DNA from: Balamuthia mandrillaris
Taxonomy: Eukaryota
Assembly (NCBI GenBank): GCA_031835245.2
Contig: JAVKOQ020000071.1
Coordinates: 62,001-126,000, forward strand
Direction: 5' to 3'
Length of the DNA: 64,000 nt
In this document: piece after piece, positions 14,767-26,929 of the stretch
Position numbering within the stretch: position 1 is the stretch's first letter
How the letters are laid out: each line of letters opens with the position of its first letter
The notes under the pieces: generated by a model
Database searches by the model: none
What the model saw: the letters and a program-made list of their open reading frames with translations, nothing else
Told to the model about the DNA's origin: nothing
Position numbers and translations under genes: made by a program

Positions 14767-15180
14767 CATTGAATAGAGAAGACAGAGAGAGAAAAAAAAA
14801 CACGAAAAATAGCGTACAAATATTTTCGTTATGTTTAGCCGAGCACTCCATAAACGCACATTTGAGCTCCTCCTCCGCCACACGTCTTCCCTCCTCCGTG
14901 GAAATGGCTCGCTCCAACTGCAAATCGCTCTTGTTGCCAACGAGCACGCGAGGCACGTCGTTCTTGCCACAAGCATCCAAAATCTTCTCGTTGAGCACTT
15001 TGACAATCTCGAGAGAGGAGCGAGAAGCTACCGAGTATACGAGGAGGTAGCCATGAATGCCAACGCTCCCCCGGAATGGAAAAATGGAGTGTTCATCCTG
15101 TTCACGTAAAAAACAACGTAAGAGAAAGCGGAAAGAGTACAAAGAAAAAGAGATATAGCTAGAGCAATAAAAACATAATG

Positions 15181-15250
<70 letters not shown>

Positions 15251-15437
15251 AGGGACAGAACGGAACGCAAAGGAGAGCAAGGTAGGAAAAACAAGAGAAA
15301 GAGAGGAGAAAGCACGAGGAGGAAAACACAACGAAGAGAGGAAGAAAGAAGACACGACGAGGAAGAAATATGAAAGAAAAAAGAAAGGGAGGAAGAGAGA
15401 AGAAAAAGGAGAGAGAGGGAGAGAGAGGGAAAGAGAA

Positions 15438-15469
<32 letters not shown>

Positions 15470-15660
15470 AGACGAAGAGAGAGAGAAGCGGAAAACCTGT
15501 CCAGCGGTGTCAATGATCTCGGTCTCGTAGTCGGTGCCTTTGTATTTGATGACCTTGGTGAAGGTGTTCTCTATGGTCGGGTTATAGCTATCTACAAAAT
15601 GGTTTTCAGTAAACTGGATCGTTATCGCTGATTTTCCTGTTTTCATTTTGTTGATAATCA

Positions 15661-15700
<40 letters not shown>

Positions 15701-15902
15701 CGAAAAGGTTAATCAACAAAAAGCTTTAAAAAAAAGTAAAACGGAGTTTTTTGGAAATGTTTTTCTGCATCTTAAAGTCGAAGAAGAAGAAAAAAGGAGA
15801 GAACAAGGGGGGGGAAGAAGAGGAATCGAGAAGACCGAAAAACGTACCGACAGCACGAAAGCCCATCACGGCCACTTTGCGTTGTTTCTTGTAGCTTGAC
15901 AT
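14601..15902 (-). CDS. RHEB: Rheb small GTPase
   Basis: KVAVMGFRAVGKS, FVDSYNPTIENTF (Rheb effector region), DTAGQDE, GNKSD, SAK, and C-terminal CAAX CVLF. Three GT-AG introns. Confidence 0.93.
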
Positions 15903-16183
15903 TTATTTATTTATTTTTCTTGGGGTGGTACTTTAAACAAGAGCTTCTTGGCCACAAAACACTGGACGATCGCGACCTTTACTTCTACTGCGATGGTCAC
16001 CTTGCGAAATGGGTTGTCGAAACGGAAGAGGAAGTGAAAGGCAAAGAGCAAGAGAAAGAAAAGGAAGAAAAAAAGGAATAACTGTTTTTTTTCTCTTGCT
16101 CTTTATGTATCAGCACCAGCAAAAGCAGAAAGAAAGAGAAGTGGGAGAAGTGTTGAAGTGGGAGATGTGTTATTTCAATGAGT

Positions 16184-16888
16184 TTATTCTTTTTCCTCGT
16201 CCTCTTCTTCCTCTCCCTCCCCCTCCCCTTCCCCCTCCCCTTCCCCCTCCTCCTCCTGTTGTAGCGGTGCCTCTCCAAGGAATAGGGCCAAGCGGAGGCG
16301 TTTGCGGGCGAAGGTGCCTTGCTGGATACAGGCCGGTTGAAGAAAGGCTGAAAGAGAGAGATCCTGTAGCTCACTCTCGCTGCCGCTGCCGCCACCCCCG
16401 CCGCCGCCGCCTCTGCCGCCGCCGCCGCGGACACTAACTTTTGAAGCATCGTTCACTTCCTCCTCCAGTCGGCGTTCTTCTGAAGGGGAGAGCAGGGGTT
16501 CACATCCCCACGGAGCTACAGTGAGGTGCTCGTTGGGCGCCCTCTCTCCGCCTCTCGCCAGCCTCTTGCGTTTGCGAGAGCCCTGGAGCCGTTGGGGCTC
16601 TGTCCCCGGCGCGGCGGTCACTCTGGCGTTTTGCCTACGAGCTTGCCCGCCGCCGACTACGCCAGTCTGTAGGGCGCGCGCGCTCGTGGTCCGGGTAGCC
16701 ACCGAGCCAGTTGGCGGCGCCTCAGCTTTCCGTTTGTGAAACGCCCCACGCACCTGCGGGGGAGTGGATCGGCAAGGTTGGAGGAAGCAGCCATGCTCTT
16801 CTGAAGAAAGCTGTGCCCGTGGGGCACCGGCGACGCCAAACTTAGCAGGTCCTTGTAGGGGTGAAGTGGTGAGCCCATGGTAAGCCAT
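16184..16888 (-). CDS. Hypothetical protein with acidic C-terminal tail
   Basis: 234-aa GC-rich ORF starting next to an AT-rich intergenic region. No recognised domain. Confidence 0.45.
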   Translation of the reverse strand: MAYHGLTTSPLQGPAKFGVAGAPRAQLSSEEHGCFLQPCRSTPPQVRGAFHKRKAEAPPTGSVATRTTSARALQTGVVGGGQARRQNARVTAAPGTEPQRLQGSRKRKRLARGGERAPNEHLTVAPWGCEPLLSPSEERRLEEEVNDASKVSVRGGGGRGGGGGGGGSGSESELQDLSLSAFLQPACIQQGTFARKRLRLALFLGEAPLQQEEEGEGEGEGEGEGEEEEDEEKE

Positions 16889-17266
16889 TCCGTCTTGTTA
16901 GGTTGTCTTGTGTTGCTTTTAGGCGGGAAAAAAAAAGAGCGCATACTGTTTTTTACCGTCATCAAAAAAAAAAACCGATAGAGAGCAAGGGAGAGAGGGA
17001 GAGAGAGGGAGAGAGGGAGGAAAGGACGAGACAAAAATTTCGCAGAAGCTTTCAAGTTGGCAACGGAACAAAAATTGGGCAAGGTTCTCTGTACTTTCTG
17101 TGAGTTCCATGCGTGTCAGTTTTTTGGGCAAACCGCAAAATGGCCCCAAGCTAATGAAAGTTTATTGCGCTTTTTTTTTCCAAATCACGATAATTTTGGT
17201 TTTCGCCTGCACGTGCACTTCAAAAACAACGAAGGAAGGGAGGAGGAACCTGCTCGCGCACCGCCC

Positions 17267-18881
17267 ATGGCTTCCTCGTCAGCGTCATTGCCTGCCGCCT
17301 TGGAGCAAGAAGTGGAGGCAGTAGCCACGTTTTGCAAACTGTGTTCTCTGTTGACCAAGCCGCGAACGGAACAACAACCCCACTGGGACCTGCAGGGCAG
17401 GCTACGCCTTAGCCTTCCCGCCACACCCAACGCTTTGCTAGTGGAGCTGGTTGCTGCTGAGCAGCAGCGCCAAGTCTTTGTGGAGGAGACCTCTGTGGTT
17501 CTGGTCCGAGACTACAGCGACCTTTCCCAGGAAAGCGCGGCTCACCTTCGACGCAAGGTCATGCCGGACATCGCCACACAGTACATGGAGGACCTCAAGG
17601 ACTGGGACGGACAGCAGGCGCCGCCGCCTGAGCTATTCATTGAGGCCACGCTGGTGCACGCCAGGACAGCAGAGCCCGGTTTTGTGCTGCAGATCCGCCC
17701 GCAAGAGGACGGCAGTGGGCTTGAGCTCAACTCCTGGCGGCTCATGGGGGACATCCTTCATCGTATGGGCGCGGTCCTCGAGTGCATGGACATGATGGTC
17801 AAGCAGCACCTACTGTTCCAGGAGGTTCGGGTGGTTTGGAAGAAACGCAAAGCAGGAGCACCCACCCGAGGCCCTGTTCGCCCTCCTTTTAAAGCAAGCT
17901 ATTCATCCCTGACTAATAATCCCCTCCAAACGCCGCCAACGGCACCAAGCCCAACTCTCCTTGTGCTGGACCCAGCACAAGGAGAGGACATCGCGCTCGC
18001 CTCAGCAGCCACATCGAAAGGTTGTAGTAGCAACGGTAGTGGGAGCACCAGCACCAGCAGTAGCAGCAGCAGCATCAGAAGAGAACAACGATCTCACCAA
18101 GCAGGGCACGAGGTGGTGCATGAATCCCATCTTTCCGCCACCCCTCAACCAGTCGGTGCCAAACGGGAACCCCTGCCTCACTTGCATGGGCCGTTGGGCA
18201 GCTCCTCACACAAACGCCGCAGGCTGACCCTTCCTCTTGTCCACGTTCTCTCACGGGTGGAGAAGGGAAAGGAGAAGGAAAAGGAACAAGTGGAGGAGAG
18301 GGAGGAGGAGGAAGAAGAAGAGGAGGAGGAGGAAGCGGAGGAAGCGGACGCGGAAGAGGAGGAGGAGGAGGAGGAGGAGGAGGAGGAGGAGGAGGAGGAG
18401 GAGGAGGAGGAGGGAGAGGGAGGAGGAAGGGGAAGCAGCAGAGGAAGACGACGGTGATTACAACGCGGTGGAGGGACGGTTCTGCTGGCAGGACATATAC
18501 GGTTTGATCCCTAGGAACCAGCGCAAGCATCTCATGTGCATCCTGGTGCCAGGCAACAGGATGTGGGTGTGCTCCGCCTGTTGCGTGAACAATGTCAAGA
18601 AACATCGTGGGCACCAACCTGTGAAGAAAAGGTCCCTGCACAGACGCTTTTCCCAACATGTGCGCAAGATGCACGCAGAGCTCTTCACCACCCATCCCAA
18701 CCTGGGCAACGAGCAGTGGGGCTGCACAGTTGGCACAGTGTTACAAGTGAGCAACGGTAGTTTCACCAAGAGCCATCGCATCACAGTACCTGAGCTCATC
18801 AAGCTGAACCGATTGGCAGCAGATGGCGAGATGGTGCCCGTGTGCCAGCCCAACGTTCGCAGTCGCCTCAACCTGGCGTGA
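17267..18881 (+). CDS. Hypothetical protein with poly-Glu linker and C-terminal Cys/His (zinc-finger-like) region; apparent frameshift in the (GAG)n tract near 18410
   Basis: Long coding-like ORF to the poly-E tract. It continues in a second frame with WVCSACC...FSQHVRKMH. Confidence 0.6.
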
Positions 18882-19241
18882 CTGTGCGACAGTCACTACC
18901 TACCACCAATCTATTTGTTTATTTTTGTACAAAAACGTTTCCTGCCGTCTCTCCTCTCCGTGCTTTTCTTTCTCTAGTGGTGCTATGGGTGATAGCTTAA
19001 GGGTTTCGGATATTAGAGGCAGAGAGGAGAAGGCCAGCGTAGAGGCTGGTGCGAGGCGGAGAAGAGAGAGAGAGAGAGAGAGAGAGAAGTTATTTTATTT
19101 ATTTATTTATTTATTTATTTTTTTGGCGAAACCCTTGTGGCTCCTGCTACACCTCCTGCTTCACCCACACGCGGGCGGCGTCGCCCCCGAAAATTGATTG
19201 GTGCCACACCCACACTCAGACACACTCACTGACCTCCGCAG

Positions 19242-20557
19242 ATGCAAAGTAAGAAACGAAAAATAGAACCGAAAGAACCAGACGACCCATCCAGCAAGGA
19301 ACGAAGAACAGCAAAAAGCCCCCAAAGAAAAAACGCTCGCTGCCACATAAACGGATGCAAAAGGCCAAGTAAAAGGTGTGACTATGGCATGTGCCGAGCG
19401 CACTGCCAGCGACTGCACGAGTGGGCTTCCCTTGGTCCTTGTGCAGGACACACTGCAACCAAGCCAGGGCGTAACAGGGCCAACTCTCCCACTTCCAGTC
19501 CCAATGGGTCAACAACCATTGTGCCTCCTTCAGCACTGCCTCTTCCTCTTCCTTCCCCTTTGGCTTCCTCCTCCTCCACCGCCTCTGCTCCCTCCTCCTC
19601 CTCCTCCTCCTCCTCTGGTTCAGCACTGCCTCCTGCTCTTCCTTCCCCTTTGGCTTCCTCCTCCTCCTCCTCCTCCTCCTCCTCCTCCTCCTCCCTCCTC
19701 CTCCTCCTCCTCCTCCTCCTCCTCCTCCTCCTCCTCCTCCTCCTCCTCCTCCTCCTCCTCCTCCTCCTCTTCTCCTTCGACTTCCATCGCCGCTATGGTG
19801 GCTGCTCGGCATCGAGCAATCGGCGACGGCACGCAACGACCAACAAGAGTGAGAGTGAAGGTGAAAAGGGGAATCGTTTTTGGGCACAAAGCGTGGAAGT
19901 TGGAGAAAGAAACGGAGGAGCAGCACACTCACGGTTGGACAGCTTTCGTGAAAGGTCCTCCTGGCGACAGGGACATATCCTACTTTGTGAAAAAAGTGGT
20001 GTTTCAATTGGATCCGAGCTTCAAAAAACCACATAAACGAGGTTCTCGCTTCTCTTCTCTCTTCTCTCCTTCACTTTCACTTGCTTCTCTAGATGTACTG
20101 ACATGGGCCGGATGGAGCAGTGGTGAACAAGCCACCATTCAAAATAACGGCAACGGCTTACGAGTCATTCGACCTTGGTATTTGGCTCCACTTTGTGGAC
20201 AAAGCAGAGGCGCCGGTGAGCCTTGGCTATTATCGTGTGCAGTTGGACGCACACGGTACGCAAATGGAATACAATGAAATCATCTTTGAGAGCCCCACCA
20301 TGCATAGCATCCTGCAAGGCAAGAGGAATGGAACGGCTCGGCCTTGGATCTCTTCAAGTTCTTCTTCTTCTTCTTCTTCTTCTTCTTCTTCTTCTTCTGC
20401 TGGTTCTTCTTCAACAACAACGACCACCCATGCTGGGACGTTCTATTGTGTGCACTGTGGGGGGCCAATACTCCAGGACCCGAGTTTTCCTCATCCTCGA
20501 TACTGCCCTCGCTGCGGCAAAGCTGCCCCTCTGCCCCCGGCGGCAGAAAGGCGATAA
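19242..20557 (+). CDS. YEATS-domain protein with N-terminal Cys/His cluster and C-terminal zinc ribbon; one extra C in (TCC)n near 19694
   Basis: GIVFGH..HTHGWTAFVKG..DISYFVKKVVFQLDPSF..VVNKPPFKITATAYESF. N-terminal CHINGC..C...CRAHC..CAGH and C-terminal CVHCG..CPRCG. Intron about 20042-20120. Confidence 0.8.
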
Positions 20558-20658
20558 ACTCAAATAATAATCACAAGCAAAGGATATAAATCCGAGTGTT
20601 TCATAAATATTCAATAAATTAAATAATATCGAAAAACAACAATAAGAGAGAAAGACTT

Positions 20659-22127
20659 TTAGGAACGATGGGAGGAGGAAGAAGAGGAGGAGGAAGAGGA
20701 GGAGGAGTTGGTAAAGTCAAAGGTGATGCAGTACGCTTTGTGAGTGCCGTTCTTCTCGAAAGAGAGAAGGTGCTCAAAGCCGATCGGTCGATGCGCGTTT
20801 TGACGAAAGTGAACGTTTCCTCTTATTGTGAAGGTTGACCACCCGATCTGTGTTTCAATTTAACATGAGAATGAGAGAGGAGAGAGAGAGAGAGAGAGAA
20901 GAGAGAACACGCAAAGGACAAACTGACCCTGGTAAACTCGAAGGGATCAGAGTTAAGAACGACGGTGGCCGGTTGGAACGATGGATGCAGAAAGACCTCC
21001 ACTTTGTCGATGTAGAGCCCAGTCGGCATTTGTGTGGCAGGTCCCAACTGTTCGTCCATTCCCAAAACTTTGATGAAAAACTTCCACTTGTGTTTATTGT
21101 ATCCTGCGTTCTAAAAGTATTGTTAATAGTTTAAACGATTCCATGTTAGTGATGACACAGATAGAACGAAGATAGAACGAATGAAGGAGGAACAGAACAA
21201 GAAGAACAAGAACAAGAAGAACAAGAACAAGAAGAACAAGAACAAGAAACAAACCTCCAAAAGTTGATGTGTGTTGCCAATAATAAGCTTCTTCTTACCG
21301 TTGAGCATTCTTGCTCGCTGTGCCTCCACCTCCTCCGCTCGTTCTTTGTACATGGTTGGAAACCTCTCCTCCACGACTGACACCAACAACACGTTGGGCT
21401 TCATCTGAGGAACAAAGAGACAGGGCTCTCGACAGAGCGGGCAGCGCGGCTTGTGGCTTACCGCCATTTGCAAGCATAACTCGCAAAAAGTGTGTCCACA
21501 CACCGTGCTCACTGTTGGGAACCAAGAAAGAAGCGGGAAGAGAGAAATGAGAAGAGAGCAGAAGCAAACGCAAGAAAAGAGAGAAAAGAAGAAGAAGAAG
21601 AAGGAGAAGAACAAGAAGAACAAGAGCAAGAAGGTGGTGAACAGAAAAACAAAACAAACCAGGTTTGTACAAGAGTTCCGTGCAAACGGGACAAGTAAAG
21701 TCAATACCAGCCTCCAACGCCAAATACTCGTCCTCCACGCTCGACTTTGTTGTTGTCGTTATCGCTGTTGAAGAGGAAGCCGAGCAAGAAGGCAAAGTAG
21801 AAGCAGAGCCTCTACGGCTCAACACTTTTTCCTCTTCCTCCTCCTCCTCTCCGTCTCCTCCTCGCTCACGGTCTGTTGCCGATGAAGAAGTGGTTGGTGG
21901 AGCGTTCATCAAAGTGGTTGTTGGCGGGAGCGGCTCCTCTGTCGTCTGTTGCTCCACTTGGTCATGATGGTCATGCTCATGGCTTTGGTGCGGGTGTTGT
22001 TGTTGGTGTTGATGGTGCTCCTCTTGTGCGTCATGTTGATGTTGTTGGAGCGAAGCAGCGGTTGATAGTTCTGTTTGTGGTGGCTCAGAAGGTGGCTGTT
22101 GTTGATGTTGTTGAGCGGAAGAAGAAG

Positions 22128-22167
<40 letters not shown>

Positions 22168-22263
22168 AGCAGAAGAAGCAGCGGAAGAAGAAGCAGCAGC
22201 AGCAGCAGCGGAAGATTTAGAGCGTCTGTCTCCGCCGCCCATCACCCGACGAAGTCTTTCCAT
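20659..22263 (-). CDS. RING-HC plus YEATS fusion protein
   Basis: CPVCTELLYKP|VSTVCGHTFCELC..CPLCR, followed by KLIIGNTH..HKWKFFIK..IDKVEVFLHPSF..DPFEFTR|IGWSTFTI. Canonical introns. Confidence 0.85.
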
Positions 22264-23108
22264 TTCGCTACGTCAAAATAAAATAAATCAAAAGTTTTAG
22301 TTTTTTAAAAAAATATAAAAACGGAAGAAGACCGGTCGGTAGGAAAAGAAAGACGAAGACAAACACCAAGGAGTAACCAAAGGATGGATCCATGAGCGCA
22401 AGCTTACCCTTGTTTTTTTTCTTCTGAAGTATTATTATGATTGTCGCTGTGGATGAATCTGTTTGGGAGCAAAATTTTTTTTTGGTTTTCGCTGATGAAT
22501 GAGAGAGCAGCAAGGTGCGAGAACCTGTTCAATCTCTTCTTGGACTGAGAATAAAGCAAGCCAAAAAAAAAACACCCCAAAGCGGGAAGCTCTCTCGCGT
22601 TGTTCCAAAAGCAAAAAAAAAATGCCTTTTACTCTTCGTTCTGTCTTTTTTTCGAGTTTTCTTCACATTCAAGCTTTGGCACGGTTTGTGGAAGCCGCCA
22701 TTTGGATGGCAACAATCGGGCTATTTCTATGGCATTCAAAGTGCAAAGATGGCGGCCAGATGGGATGCCATGCCGGTGGCGTGGTAATCCAGCGACGCAC
22801 AAAAACTGGACGGAAAAAAATGGAAAAAATCAATTTTATCAAAATTAATTGTTTTTGTCGACGCAGAGGGAAGTGGAGAAGATCCATTTTTTTTTTTGTG
22901 AAGCGAAAATAATTTTTTAGCCAACAAAAATATTCTTTTTGTCGACGGAAACTTTAACTGGCCGTTCAGAAAAATATAAAGAAAAAGCGAAAATAACGAC
23001 AAAGGGAGCTAAGCCCTCTGCATCTGATCTAATCGAATCTTCCTCTTCTGCCTCCTGCTGTAATTTTTTTTTTCCCTCTTCTATCCTTTTTTTTTCTCCC
23101 CCTTTTGA

Positions 23109-23682
23109 TTATTTATTTTGGTTCGATGGGATGCCGTACAGTTTTTTCGTTTTCTCGTTTGCTCCTTCTATTCTTTTCTCTCCTTTTGAAAAATAGGTGC
23201 AATAAAGAGGATAAGACGAAAGAACACACCAAGAATGAAGAAAAAAAAAATAATTACAGATGTACCTTTTTCATCTTCCGCAATGAGAGGAGAGTAAGTG
23301 GTTCGCATGCAACGTGTCTTATGGTCGCCGATGCCTTTCATCTTGTAGAGTACGCACCGGTAATGCACGTCTTTTTCAAGAGCGGGAGTGCACATTGGCG
23401 CCTCTGCTTCAATCGGAATTGGTTCACTCAATCTATTCCACAGCTTTATGTGTTTTTGTTAATACATAAAGAAAAAAGAGAAGAGAAAAGAGAGCGAGAG
23501 AGAGCGAGTGCGAGAGAGAGAGAGAGAGAGAGAGAAGAAGAAGAAGAAGAAGAAGAAGAAGAAGAACAGGAACTTTGTTCAAGTACTCGAGATTGTTTCC
23601 ATCCAAAGCGCCGTTCCCAATGTGAATAACTATTTCGTCCTGGTAATAAACCGAAGCAAAAAAAATAAGTGTTGGGAAAAAT

Positions 23683-23716
<34 letters not shown>

Positions 23717-25305
23717 CACATACATTGGAGGTAAATATTATTCGGTTTGTCACATCATCCCCAAACACTTTGACCAAATGAGAATGAATACATTCCATCA
23801 ACTTCATATCATTTGGGTAATATTAGTTCCATTTTAAAACAACAATAATAATAAAGCGAAGAGAGAAGCAAAGCAGAGAAGAAAAGCAGAGATAAGAAAG
23901 AGAAGAGGCAAAGCGAACCCTGGACTGTATGAGACCGGTAACCTTGGTGTTGAGAAAGCCAAAAACAATTTGTCTAAATATCTTTGCTTTGGGAAGATAC
24001 AGATGAATGTCTGCTTGCTTTTCACAAAATCTGTTTTTGTTTTGTTTTGTTTTGTTGTTTGAACGAACATTTGAAAAGAGAGAAAGCGCAGAATCAGAAG
24101 AAAGAAAGGAAAAAGAGGAACGAAGAGTGGCAGAGTACTAACTCTTGCCAAGTTGGAGCAAGTTCTGCCTCAGCATCAAAGAGAGTAGCAGTGGTGTAAT
24201 TGGCAGTAATGATGTCTATGCTGAGCAGCCATTCGTTGTTGGTGACAAAGTCGGCTCTTTTATCTGTCTTTATGCGCAACGGATGTGCTACGGATATCTT
24301 GTTTGTGTCATATTCTTGTAAACTTGTTTTGTTGCAACGGGAAAGAAAGTATAAGACAAGCAAGAACGACTTTTTTTAAAAAAAAAGAAAACACAACAAA
24401 GGACTGACAAGAAAGCAAGAAAGAATGGAAAGAACAGAGGAACCATCGATAGGCTTTGGTGTCTTTGAGAACATCGCGAAGAAGGTTGGTTACTTTGGCG
24501 CGATACCTGCTGAAAGGCCCAATACCTTTCTCCGCACTATACTTTTCCATCTTTTTTTTTTTAATAAAAAAAATAACGGTAAGACTCGAAATGAAGAAAT
24601 ATAACACAACAAAGAATGGAAAGAAGGGTGCAGAGGAAGGCAGAGCGAAGAGAGAAGAAGAAAGAGAATGGTGGAAAGAGAAATAAAATGAAGAATGAAG
24701 AAAGAAGAAGAGCGAAGAACGAAGATAAGAAGTAAGCATGCATGATGAAGCATGAAGAAGAAGAAGAACGAAGAAGAACGAAGAAAGAGAAGAAGAACAA
24801 GAAGAACAAGAACCAAGAACAAGAAGAATGAATAACGAAGAAGGACCACTTAAACTGACCTGTATGAACTCTTGAAGCAAGGCCCAAGAGTCGAAATAAC
24901 CGTGGGCCTCCGAGAGAACGTCCAGGTAATACCTCGCTTCGCTTGCTTTTGGTATCGATACTTTCAAATAAAGGTAAATAGTGAGAAAGAAGAAGAAGAA
25001 GAACAAGAAGAAAGAGAAGAGAACAGGAGAACAAGAACAAAAAGAAAACGACGAAAGAAAGAAAGAAAAAAAAAACAAACTCTTCCAAAGCTTTGTGAAT
25101 TCTTGAAGCGATCGCGTTTCTTTGAGTCTACAGGATAACAAAAAAACCAAAAAAAAAAAACGACTGTAAACAACATGTTGAAGACCCAAAGCACGCAAAC
25201 CTACATCTTTTTCTTCTGTTCAACCGAAAGCTCTTCTGTGGGCAGGATGCTTTCGCCGCTCGTCCAAGCGTCCGAGCCGGCTCTCACGACGCTTGGTTCT
25301 TCCAT
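23109..25305 (-). CDS. Uncharacterised ~350-aa protein (10 exons) with polymerase-palm-like motifs
   Basis: Nine GT-AG introns give one open frame containing EFTKLWKISIP..YYLDVL, LLSIDIITANY, WQEF, AKIFRQIVFGFLN and IFTSN|DEIVI. Confidence 0.75.
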
Positions 25306-25694: not shown

Positions 25695-26064
25695 TCATGA
25701 CGTGCCAGCAAGAGAAGCAGAAGCAGAAGAAGAAGAAGAAGAAGAAGAAGAAGAAGAAGAAGAAGAAGAAGCTAGGTCAAGCACCAGGTGGGCTGTGTAC
25801 TCCTCCAGACCCGGTGTGAACTCGGGATGCGGGCCACAGAGCACCACCCGCCCTGCGCCGCACGCCCCCGAGATCACGGCAGCCTTGCCGCAGAGCGACC
25901 GAGCACACTTGCCGTGCCATTGCTTGGTCAGGCCGCGCAGCTTCACGTCCACCACCGTGTAGTGAGTGGTGACCTGGTTCTTCCAAAACGCGGGCTGGTT
26001 CCTGCAGAAATACGCTCCGTTTCTGTAACACACTTCCACTCGTTCAAATGCCGACGAAGAGGAA

Positions 26065-26099
<35 letters not shown>

Positions 26100-26657
26100 A
26101 GAAGAAGAAGAAGAAGAAGAAGAAGAAGAAGAAGAAGAAGAAGAACAAGAACAAGAAGAAGAACATGAAGAAGAACATGAAGAAGACTCAGAGAAAGAGG
26201 AGGAAGAACATGAAGACCGAGAAGTAGTGGCAGAGGGAGAAGTGGCTTGAAGGGTCACGTAGCCCCTCATGTCCACTTGTTTGTCCCAAGGGGCAACCAA
26301 GGTCTTGACGGGCAGCAGCCCCAAGCCCAGCTGGCTCTCGTGCAGCGCCCCGAGGCATGCCCCCGCACAGATGCCCACGAAGCGACCGCCCTGGTTGCTG
26401 ACCCAGTCACGCACCACCTCCCCATCTATCTTTCTGCTGAGGTTGAAGACCCGACCGCCAGGCACCACCAGCGTGTCAAAGCCGTGCAACTCTTGCAGGT
26501 CACGGTGGATCTCCACGACCACGTCACGGGTAATGCTGCGGTGCGGCGAGGCCGAGGCTTGGTCCAGGAAGAGCTTCACTTGGTCGGCTTGTCGCTTGTC
26601 GATGCCAGGTCCGTCATAGACGAGGACCCGTCGTTCCTCCTCCTCGCCCGTTTGCAT
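25695..26657 (-). CDS. Stand-alone BPL_N-like class I glutamine amidotransferase-fold protein
   Basis: VLVYDGPG, LVVPGG, GGRFVGICAGA (nucleophile elbow) and GRVVLCGPHPEF. Internal Ser-rich microsatellite insert. Confidence 0.82.
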
Positions 26658-26929
26658 GTTCGTTGTTGGTTTGGCACACCGCGGCGTTCGCCTTCATGCT
26701 TTTCGCCTTCCCTTCCTTCTTTTTTTTCTCTGAAGAAGAGGCTGCGAAATGAAGGGGGTCTCTGTTTTGCGGCAACCGGTCTCGCCCGAACTGCCCCTTG
26801 AATAACGGACATCTGCCGGCCGTGTTGGAGTCATCACGTTATTGGAAATTTCTCATGCAATCTTGAAACAAGACCTTATATAGAATTTTTGATGACGTGG
26901 ATTGGCTTAAAAAGGAGATATTTAACAGT

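What the first reader, a model, noticed from the sequence alone, without database searches (positions are those of the whole stretch)
23109..25305. Intron-rich gene for a minimal polymerase-palm-like protein resembling phage/giant-virus proteins
Seen: the ORF track shows only fragments, but ten exons splice into about 350 aa. Three ordered motifs appear: LLSIDIITANY (~24197-24229), AKIFRQIVFGFLN (~23950-23987) and IIFTSN|DEIVI (split by an intron). Known: right-hand DNA polymerases have motif A (beta strand then Asp), motif B (K/R...F/YG helix) and motif C (hairpin with DE or DTD) in this order. From memory, not a search, the pattern SIDxxxAN[FY]...W..F...KxxRQxxFG...SxDE with an N-terminal F.K...I.I....YY occurs in uncharacterised phage and giant-virus proteins. 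Inference: a domesticated virus-type nucleotide polymerase-like enzyme with both candidate catalytic aspartates intact and no exonuclease domain. Possible roles include repair, oligonucleotide signalling or antiviral defence.
Basis: partly seen in the sequence, partly recalled or inferred. Interest (0 to 1): 0.8.

Follow-up and report, generated by a model that had tools for sequence, protein, structure and literature searches.

The report
Viral mini-polymerase gene in an amoeba
An amoeba gene with nine introns encodes a small protein predicted to fold like a polymerase core, of an unnamed family found in huge phages and, by predicted shape, in giant viruses, which likely adds ribonucleotides to repair cut tRNA; in this copy the conserved tail is cut off, apparently by a 7-kb inversion.

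Summary
Observation confirmed. Ten exons splice into a 347-aa open frame in Balamuthia mandrillaris, and RNA-type contigs support several joins. The protein belongs to an unnamed ~300-aa family of huge phages, with structural matches in giant viruses. Two AlphaFold models best match family-B DNA polymerase palms (Z 8.9 and 9.8). Both Asp residues are invariant in 56 of 56 rows. It is not a PolB member: no DxD, no SLYPS, no exonuclease family hit. Three new points. (1) The sugar-selecting position (motif-A Asp+5) is Asn in 55 of 56 rows instead of a Tyr/Glu steric gate, which predicts rNTP use. (2) Phage copies sit among RNA-repair genes: RlaP lies in 22 of 55 loci and is adjacent in 11 (2.7 expected), with CCA-adding enzyme, Thg1, RNA ligase and tRNAs also nearby. 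All four complete phage genomes checked carry a separate DNA polymerase. Best reading: a minimal PolB-derived ribonucleotidyltransferase for tRNA/RNA repair (about 50%; not assayed). (3) The window copy lacks the conserved last ~50 residues, which lie 7.2 kb away on the opposite strand. An intact 395-aa copy exists in the same species, and other runs show the uninverted junctions.

The parts
25205..25305 (-). exon 1 (ATG at 25305)
   Evidence: X1 contigs cover it and join it onward
25081..25127 (-). exon 2
   Evidence: X1 joint 24960-25205 with letters between fits a 47-nt exon
24860..24960 (-). exon 3
24444..24550 (-). exon 4
24143..24322 (-). exon 5: motif A, Asp codon 24216-24214, Asp+5 Asn codon 24201-24199
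   Evidence: joint 24322-24444 in X1
23919..24030 (-). exon 6: motif-B helix (Lys 23984-23982, Arg, Phe-Gly)
   Evidence: donor chosen by match to the annotation and to homologues; not seen in reads
23724..23801 (-). exon 7: first strand of the motif-C hairpin
   Evidence: not seen in reads
23574..23639 (-). exon 8: starts with motif-C Asp-Glu
23266..23443 (-). exon 9
23109..23182 (-). 5' part of the last exon; homology ends at 23118, two foreign codons and a stop follow
15929..16081 (+). detached 3' part of the last exon (50 codons to stop; residues 348-373 of the intact copy match 26 of 26), on the opposite strand
   Evidence: tblastn
15930..23117 (.). segment of about 7.2 kb inferred to be inverted relative to the intact haplotype
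14801..15902 (-). Ras-family (Rheb-like by recalled motifs) GTPase gene whose ATG lies 28 nt from the second breakpoint; the end given is the end of the exon scanned

Best explanation
The gene encodes a spliced member of an unnamed viral protein family, predicted to be a minimal family-B-like palm enzyme that likely adds ribonucleotides to the 3' ends of cut tRNA or other RNA during repair; this window's copy has lost its conserved tail, apparently to an inversion, and is likely impaired. Shown here: the gene structure, the family, the invariant residues, the phage neighbourhoods and the detached tail. Predicted: the palm fold, with Asp154 at the end of strand 149-155 and Asp242-Glu243 at the hairpin 236-249 (numbering of the intact copy), which would bind two metals while Lys194/Arg197 of the short finger helix hold the triphosphate. 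Inferred: Asn159, at the position where DNA polymerases have the steric gate, would admit the 2'-OH. Also inferred: in phages the enzyme would work with RlaP, CCA-adding enzyme, Thg1 and RNA ligases to replace nucleotides lost when host nucleases cut tRNA. The amoeba lineage would have taken the gene from a viral or bacterial source, added introns, and kept it for RNA repair. The intact 395-aa copy would be the working form.
For: Fold: models with pLDDT 87.6 and 94.7. Best solved matches are PolB enzymes: Z 8.9, rmsd 5.2, 240 aligned; for the phage model Z 9.8, rmsd 4.9, 227 aligned, with the top 10 rows all PolB. Residues: D154, K194, R197, G202, D242 and E243 in 56 of 56 rows, N159 in 55 of 56. 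Sugar position: Asp+5 is Tyr in T4 gp43, Glu in T7 DNA polymerase and Gly in T7 RNA polymerase. Passages of PMC4634563 and PMC8175102 give Tyr254 five residues after Asp249 as the phi29 steric gate, DX4D selecting NTPs in (+)RNA-virus RdRps, and Asp-Leu-Glu-Lys-Tyr-Asn in Ebola L; the family consensus is Asp-Leu-Lys-Lys-Ala-Asn. Context: RlaP in 22 of 55 dereplicated loci, adjacent in 11 versus 2.7 expected, 0 of 20,000 within-locus shuffles reaching 11. RlaP, CCA enzyme, Thg1 or RNA ligase occur in 29 of 55. Formyltransferase, YqeY, PTH2, SmpB and HAD-SAK are also adjacent; tRNA genes lie in 8 of 55 loci. 4 of 4 complete phage genomes have a separate DNA polymerase and an RlaP match. RlaP adds NMP to damaged RNA (abstract of PMC12776372). 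Two giant-virus structural matches are named R3H-domain proteins.
Against: No assay exists. The equivalence of Asn159 with the steric gate rests on sequence register; the fold tools returned ranges only, not residue pairs. Z scores are middling (best 7.7 for the amoeba model in the wide search), and Foldseek on PDB gave no hit at E<=0.001. Profile comparison with T4 gp43, T7 gp5 and T7 RNAP gave nothing. The 11 RlaP-adjacent loci are related and fall in only about three parts of the tree, so the permutation overstates independence. 26 of 55 loci have none of the four RNA-repair genes in view. Large phages cluster accessory genes, and NAD-salvage genes are also near. One giant-virus match is named a DEDDy exonuclease fusion, which would also fit DNA work. 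Phage context does not carry over automatically to the amoeba.
Confidence: 0.5

Rival explanations
1. It is an accessory DNA polymerase, or a primer-making enzyme, for DNA repair or replication: a stripped-down PolB.
For: The best structural matches are PolB enzymes. The motif-B Lys...Phe-Gly spacing equals T4 gp43's Lys...Tyr-Gly. The medusavirus match is named a DEDDy exonuclease.
Against: No steric-gate residue at Asp+5. No primase, clamp or replicative polymerase among 109 adjacent genes; only one helicase-type and two AAA proteins. 4 of 4 genomes have another DNA polymerase.
Confidence: 0.2
2. It makes a free oligo- or cyclic nucleotide (a signal or decoy in conflict), as GGDEF and Cas10 palms do.
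For: GGDEF domains appear at Z about 6 in the wide search. The fingers are short, rNTP use is predicted, and NAD-salvage/NADAR genes occur nearby.
Against: PolB scores above GGDEF in both wide searches. No sensor or effector family recurs next to it. No PADLOC match for the amoeba protein.
Confidence: 0.12
3. It transfers a nucleotide onto a protein or another non-RNA acceptor, or acts in tRNA charging or formylation rather than in end repair.
For: Formyltransferase (7 loci), YqeY (5), PTH2 and SmpB are adjacent genes, which points to translation in general.
Against: RlaP and CCA-adding enzymes, which act on RNA ends, are the most frequent neighbours. The fold is a nucleic-acid polymerase palm.
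Confidence: 0.1
4. In the amoeba the gene is a dispensable, decaying acquisition with no current role.
For: One copy is broken. The two copies differ at about 6% of residues. Few RNA reads were laid: 10, 8 and 2 from 3-5% of three runs. No other named eukaryote was found.
Against: Nine introns, spliced transcripts, and every invariant residue kept in the intact copy. The intact junction is present in DNA of another study.
Confidence: 0.2

Closest known systems
Family B DNA polymerases (Pol alpha, archaeal PolB, T4/RB69 gp43)
   Same: Best structural match for the palm and fingers; same Lys...aromatic-Gly spacing in motif B; Asp at the end of strand 1 and at the hairpin.
   Different: About 300 aa. 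No SLYPS and no Tyr gate (Asn instead), Asp-Glu rather than DxD, only about 40 residues between motifs A and B, no exonuclease hit, no sequence similarity detected.
TV-Pol and family A polymerases (Iyer et al. 2008, PMC2579912)
   Same: Small viral palm polymerase; motif C ends in Asp-Glu as in T7 gp5.
   Different: Motif B has PolB spacing, the structure ranks PolB first, and no D5 helicase or primase is adjacent.
RlaP, CCA-adding enzyme and Thg1 of phage RNA repair (PMC7824862 section 3.4.9; PMC12776372)
   Same: Same gene neighbourhood and the proposed job of restoring nucleotides on damaged tRNA.
   Different: Different family: RlaP and CCA enzyme are Pol-beta fold. No Pfam match to any of the three; the two sections read do not mention this family.
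Viral RNA-dependent RNA polymerases
   Same: Small polar residue at motif-A Asp+5; motif A resembles the mononegaviral one.
   Different: Encoded by DNA viruses, much smaller, and RdRp folds rank low.
Uncharacterised giant-virus proteins (Klosneuvirus A0A1V0SKG9, Hyperionvirus A0A3G5ABH4, Pandoravirus, Tupanvirus, medusavirus A0A3T1CWG1)
   Same: Whole-protein fold match (TM up to 0.83 with the phage model, E 1e-13).

Membership tests
RRM-fold palm nucleotidyltransferases (superfamily) | Palm topology with Asp at the end of strand 1 and Asp at the strand 2-3 hairpin | tested here: met
   Secondary structure of both models, PolB/RT/GGDEF matches, invariant Asp residues. The distance between the two Asp was not measured.
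Family B DNA polymerase | Palm and fingers fold | tested here: met
   Z 8.9 and 9.8, PolB ranks first; scores are middling
Family B DNA polymerase | Motif A DxxSLYPS with Tyr steric gate | tested here: not met
   Asp+5 is Asn in 55 of 56 rows
Family B DNA polymerase | Motif C DxD (called apomorphic in PMC7824862 section 3.4.1) | tested here: not met
   Asp-Glu invariant; two residues before the Asp: Ser 32, Lys 9, Asn 9 of 56
Family B DNA polymerase | Motif B Kx3Nx2YG spacing | tested here: met
   K194, F201 (48 of 56), G202; Gln replaces Asn
Family B DNA polymerase | 3'-5' exonuclease domain or Pfam DNA_pol_B match | tested here: not met
   No such Pfam hit at E<=0.1 in 17 members. The N-terminal helices align within that region of PolB by range only.
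Family A / TV-Pol | Motif B RxxxK...YG spacing | tested here: not met
   The family has K-x2-R-x3-F-G, unlike T7 gp5
Family A / TV-Pol | Link to D5 helicase or primase genes | tested here: not met
   None among 109 adjacent genes
Family A / TV-Pol | Profile similarity to TV-Pol | not tested
   No TV-Pol alignment was fetched
RlaP / CCA-adding / Thg1 | Pfam PF10127, PF01743 or PF04446 match | tested here: not met
RNA-repair nucleotidyltransferase (works like) | Adds NMP to damaged RNA | not testable with these tools
   Needs an assay; context and motif only
GGDEF / Cas10-type cyclases | Fold | tested here: inconclusive
   Z about 6, below PolB

The most novel reading that the evidence does not exclude
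An unrecognised class of RNA-repair polymerase: a family-B DNA polymerase core reduced to 300 residues and switched to ribonucleotides by an Asn in place of the steric gate, possibly template-guided so that it restores the correct sequence of cut tRNAs. It is shared by huge phages and giant viruses and domesticated, with nine introns, by an amoeba.
Probability: 0.35. Interest if true: 0.88.

Novelty: new variant of a known kind. Interest (0 to 1): 0.66.

Why it matters
It gives a fold, catalytic residues and a testable job to a widespread viral family that has no Pfam, PHROGs, NCBIfam or PADLOC entry. Known end-restoring enzymes of phage RNA repair are Pol-beta-fold (RlaP, CCA) or Thg1. A PolB-derived ribonucleotide adder would be a new route and a natural example of a DNA-to-RNA switch in that fold. 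The amoeba copy shows that such a conflict enzyme can be domesticated by a eukaryote. The inversion is a structural polymorphism that hits two genes at once: this one and the upstream region of a Ras-family GTPase.

Tried and rejected
No whole genome was held, so copy number beyond the two annotated copies and the flanks of the intact copy were not checked. Family libraries: nothing meaningful in Pfam, PHROGs, NCBIfam, PADLOC or PDB by sequence (38; only a glutamyl-tRNA synthetase at E 0.18, rejected as chance). The single-sequence search returned only the query. Viral scans with P0001, P0002, the L127 protein and alignment A5 found no relatives. hhalign against T4/T7 polymerases: probability <=0.2%. 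A 19-nt search for the missing tail found nothing because its first bases are lost at the breakpoint; tblastn then found it. My early idea of a repeat insertion at the truncation was dropped once the tail was found. The inverted-repeat scan returned only low-complexity arms. My first exon-6 donor (23942) was replaced by 23918. The careful tree did not finish in two runs; the quick tree is used, no AU test was run and no giant-virus rows were included. Rows left out: two loci under 250 aa. No RNA holder was listed on record. Three look-ups of earlier findings were empty. Literature: ten searches found no paper describing this family. The 2016 RNA-repair survey (Burroughs and Aravind, recalled) was not held. 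The supplement of PMC7824862 could not be read and may list it.

Full report
Observation. The minus strand from 25305 to 23109 holds ten exons separated by nine GT..AG introns of 77-309 nt that splice into one open frame. Exon 5 used as a query returned one protein, Balamuthia mandrillaris QOT17_009013. My corrected 347-aa model equals it for 324 residues, after which the annotation reads into intron 9. Contigs of run X1 have depth only on exons and skip introns 3, 4, 8, 9 and, jointly, 1+2. Raw reads of two RNA runs (10 and 8 reads laid, a third run 2) fit minus-strand transcription over exons 3-7. Introns 5-7 rest on splice signals, the annotation and homology. The neighbours are eukaryotic: BPL_N, RING, YEATS, Vps36, Surp/CID and a Ras-family gene (5 of 9 ORF pieces with hits named here).

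The window copy is broken. The same cluster holds a second Balamuthia protein, QOT17_022213 (395 aa), 93.9% identical over 345 residues. It continues for about 50 residues past the point where the window copy stops. That tail holds Asp363 (55 of 56 rows) and Phe366 (54 of 56) and is folded in the model. tblastn found the tail in the window at 15929-16081 on the plus strand. DNA-type contigs X2 and X3 (one sample, another study) and one X1 contig run on from 23118 into the tail sequence. Three X5 reads join 23010-23122 to letters that end in the reverse complement of 15915-15930, the other junction of an uninverted arrangement. A further X1 contig spans 23064-23176 with no difference, so the window's junction is not only an assembly product. 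I infer an inversion of about 7.2 kb (15930-23117) with a few bases lost at the ends. It splits the last exon and lands 28 nt from the start codon of the GTPase gene. Allele versus near paralogue is not settled.

Family. tblastn against 50,697 phage records gave 2 hits, both jumbo phages. Alignment-driven scans gave 152 loci that reduce to 55 at 70% identity. Most are IMG/VR contigs, many over 100 kb; 12 came from bacterial genomes or MAGs. No library names the family. The ESM Atlas puts it next to unnamed viral clusters (score 0.97, TM 0.8 by target). In a quick tree of 57 rows the two amoeba proteins group with two unnamed JGI proteins of unknown origin (SH-aLRT 99), inside a 12-row set otherwise made of viral and metagenome contigs. 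The tree is unrooted and has no giant-virus rows, so a viral donor is an inference.

Fold. The intact amoeba protein folds at pLDDT 87.6 and a 301-aa phage member at 94.7. Foldseek on PDB gave no hit at E<=0.001, though Pol alpha fills the top rows. VIA-align gave best Z 7.7 in the wide search and 8.9 in the second look. For the phage model it gave 9.8, with PolB in the first ten rows. These are middling scores, but they agree with each other. Asp154 ends a strand and Asp242-Glu243 caps a hairpin, the palm arrangement described in PMC7824862 section 3.4.1 (section read). Against BFVD all 11 hits at E<=0.001 are giant-virus proteins; with the phage model TM reaches 0.83.

Substrate. Five residues after the motif-A Asp, T4 gp43 has Tyr, T7 DNA polymerase Glu and T7 RNA polymerase Gly. 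Passages of two papers describe this position as the steric gate of DNA polymerases and as the 2'-OH-binding Asp of (+)RNA-virus RdRps, and give Asp-Leu-Glu-Lys-Tyr-Asn for Ebola L. This family has Asn there in 55 of 56 rows. That predicts rNTP use, by register only. Motif B has PolB spacing, and motif C is Asp-Glu, not DxD, so it is not filed as PolB.

Context. Among 109 genes adjacent to the 55 representatives (ORFs of 70 aa or more; short antisense ORFs ignored), RlaP is adjacent in 11 loci, formyltransferase in 7, CCA-adding enzyme in 5 and YqeY in 5. Thg1, PNK-RNA ligase, PTH2, SmpB, HAD-SAK and NADAR occur once each. No primase, clamp or replicative polymerase is adjacent; many neighbours have no family. 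RlaP lies within 22 of 55 loci; 2.7 adjacencies are expected from within-locus shuffling, and 0 of 20,000 shuffles reach 11. The 11 fall in about three parts of the tree, so they are not independent. tRNA genes lie in 8 of 55 loci. Of five large genomes asked for, four were held: each has a separate DNA polymerase (PolB in 3; Pol III alpha plus PolA in the other) and an RlaP match (3 over cut-off). Section 3.4.9 of PMC7824862 (section read) lists RlaP, CCA enzyme and Thg1 as the end-restoring enzymes of jumbo phages and does not mention this family. The abstract of PMC12776372 reports that RlaP adds one or two NMP to damaged RNA.

Mechanism and rivals. Most likely (0.5) it is a two-metal ribonucleotidyltransferase acting on cut tRNA/RNA ends alongside RlaP and ligases. 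I put the chance that it is an active palm nucleotidyltransferase of some kind at about 0.9. Rivals for the chemistry: accessory DNA polymerase or primer maker (0.2), free-nucleotide synthase (0.12), other acceptor (0.1). Separately, the gene may be dispensable in the amoeba (0.2). The window copy keeps motifs A-C but lacks the tail and is likely impaired.

Novelty. Ten full-text searches found no description of the family (listed under Tried and rejected). From PMC2579912 I read the first third of the text; TV-Pol is a different, PolA-type family. An unreadable supplement and one survey not held may mention the family. Verdict: real feature, new variant of a known kind, interest 0.66.

Noticed in passing
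window 14801-15902 (-): Ras-family GTPase gene (Rheb-like by recalled motifs) whose upstream region is replaced by the inversion; its ATG is 28 nt from the breakpoint, so its expression from this haplotype may differ.
   Followed up: partly
window 23168-23265: NCBI's model QOT17_009013 reads through intron 9 and gains a false hydrophobic tail; an X1 contig shows the intron is spliced.
   Followed up: yes
window 19233-22272: Two YEATS-containing genes, one also with a RING finger, face each other inside the inverted segment.
   Followed up: no
window 25695-26693 (-): Single-ORF BPL_N (biotin-protein ligase N-terminal-like) gene directly upstream, with a long poly-Ser insertion.
   Followed up: no
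L097:281-9868: Array of 18 tRNA genes followed by YqeY, the family gene and Thg1 in a gut phage; the clearest tRNA-linked locus.
   Followed up: partly
L126:8022-8522: In Pseudobacteroides cellulosolvens the ORF covers only the C-terminal part of the family protein; possibly a broken copy.
   Followed up: no
P0002, P0043: Two unnamed JGI proteins on 1.3-1.7 kb contigs are the nearest relatives (36-37% identity); they could be transcripts of other eukaryotes, which would make the acquisition older.
   Followed up: no
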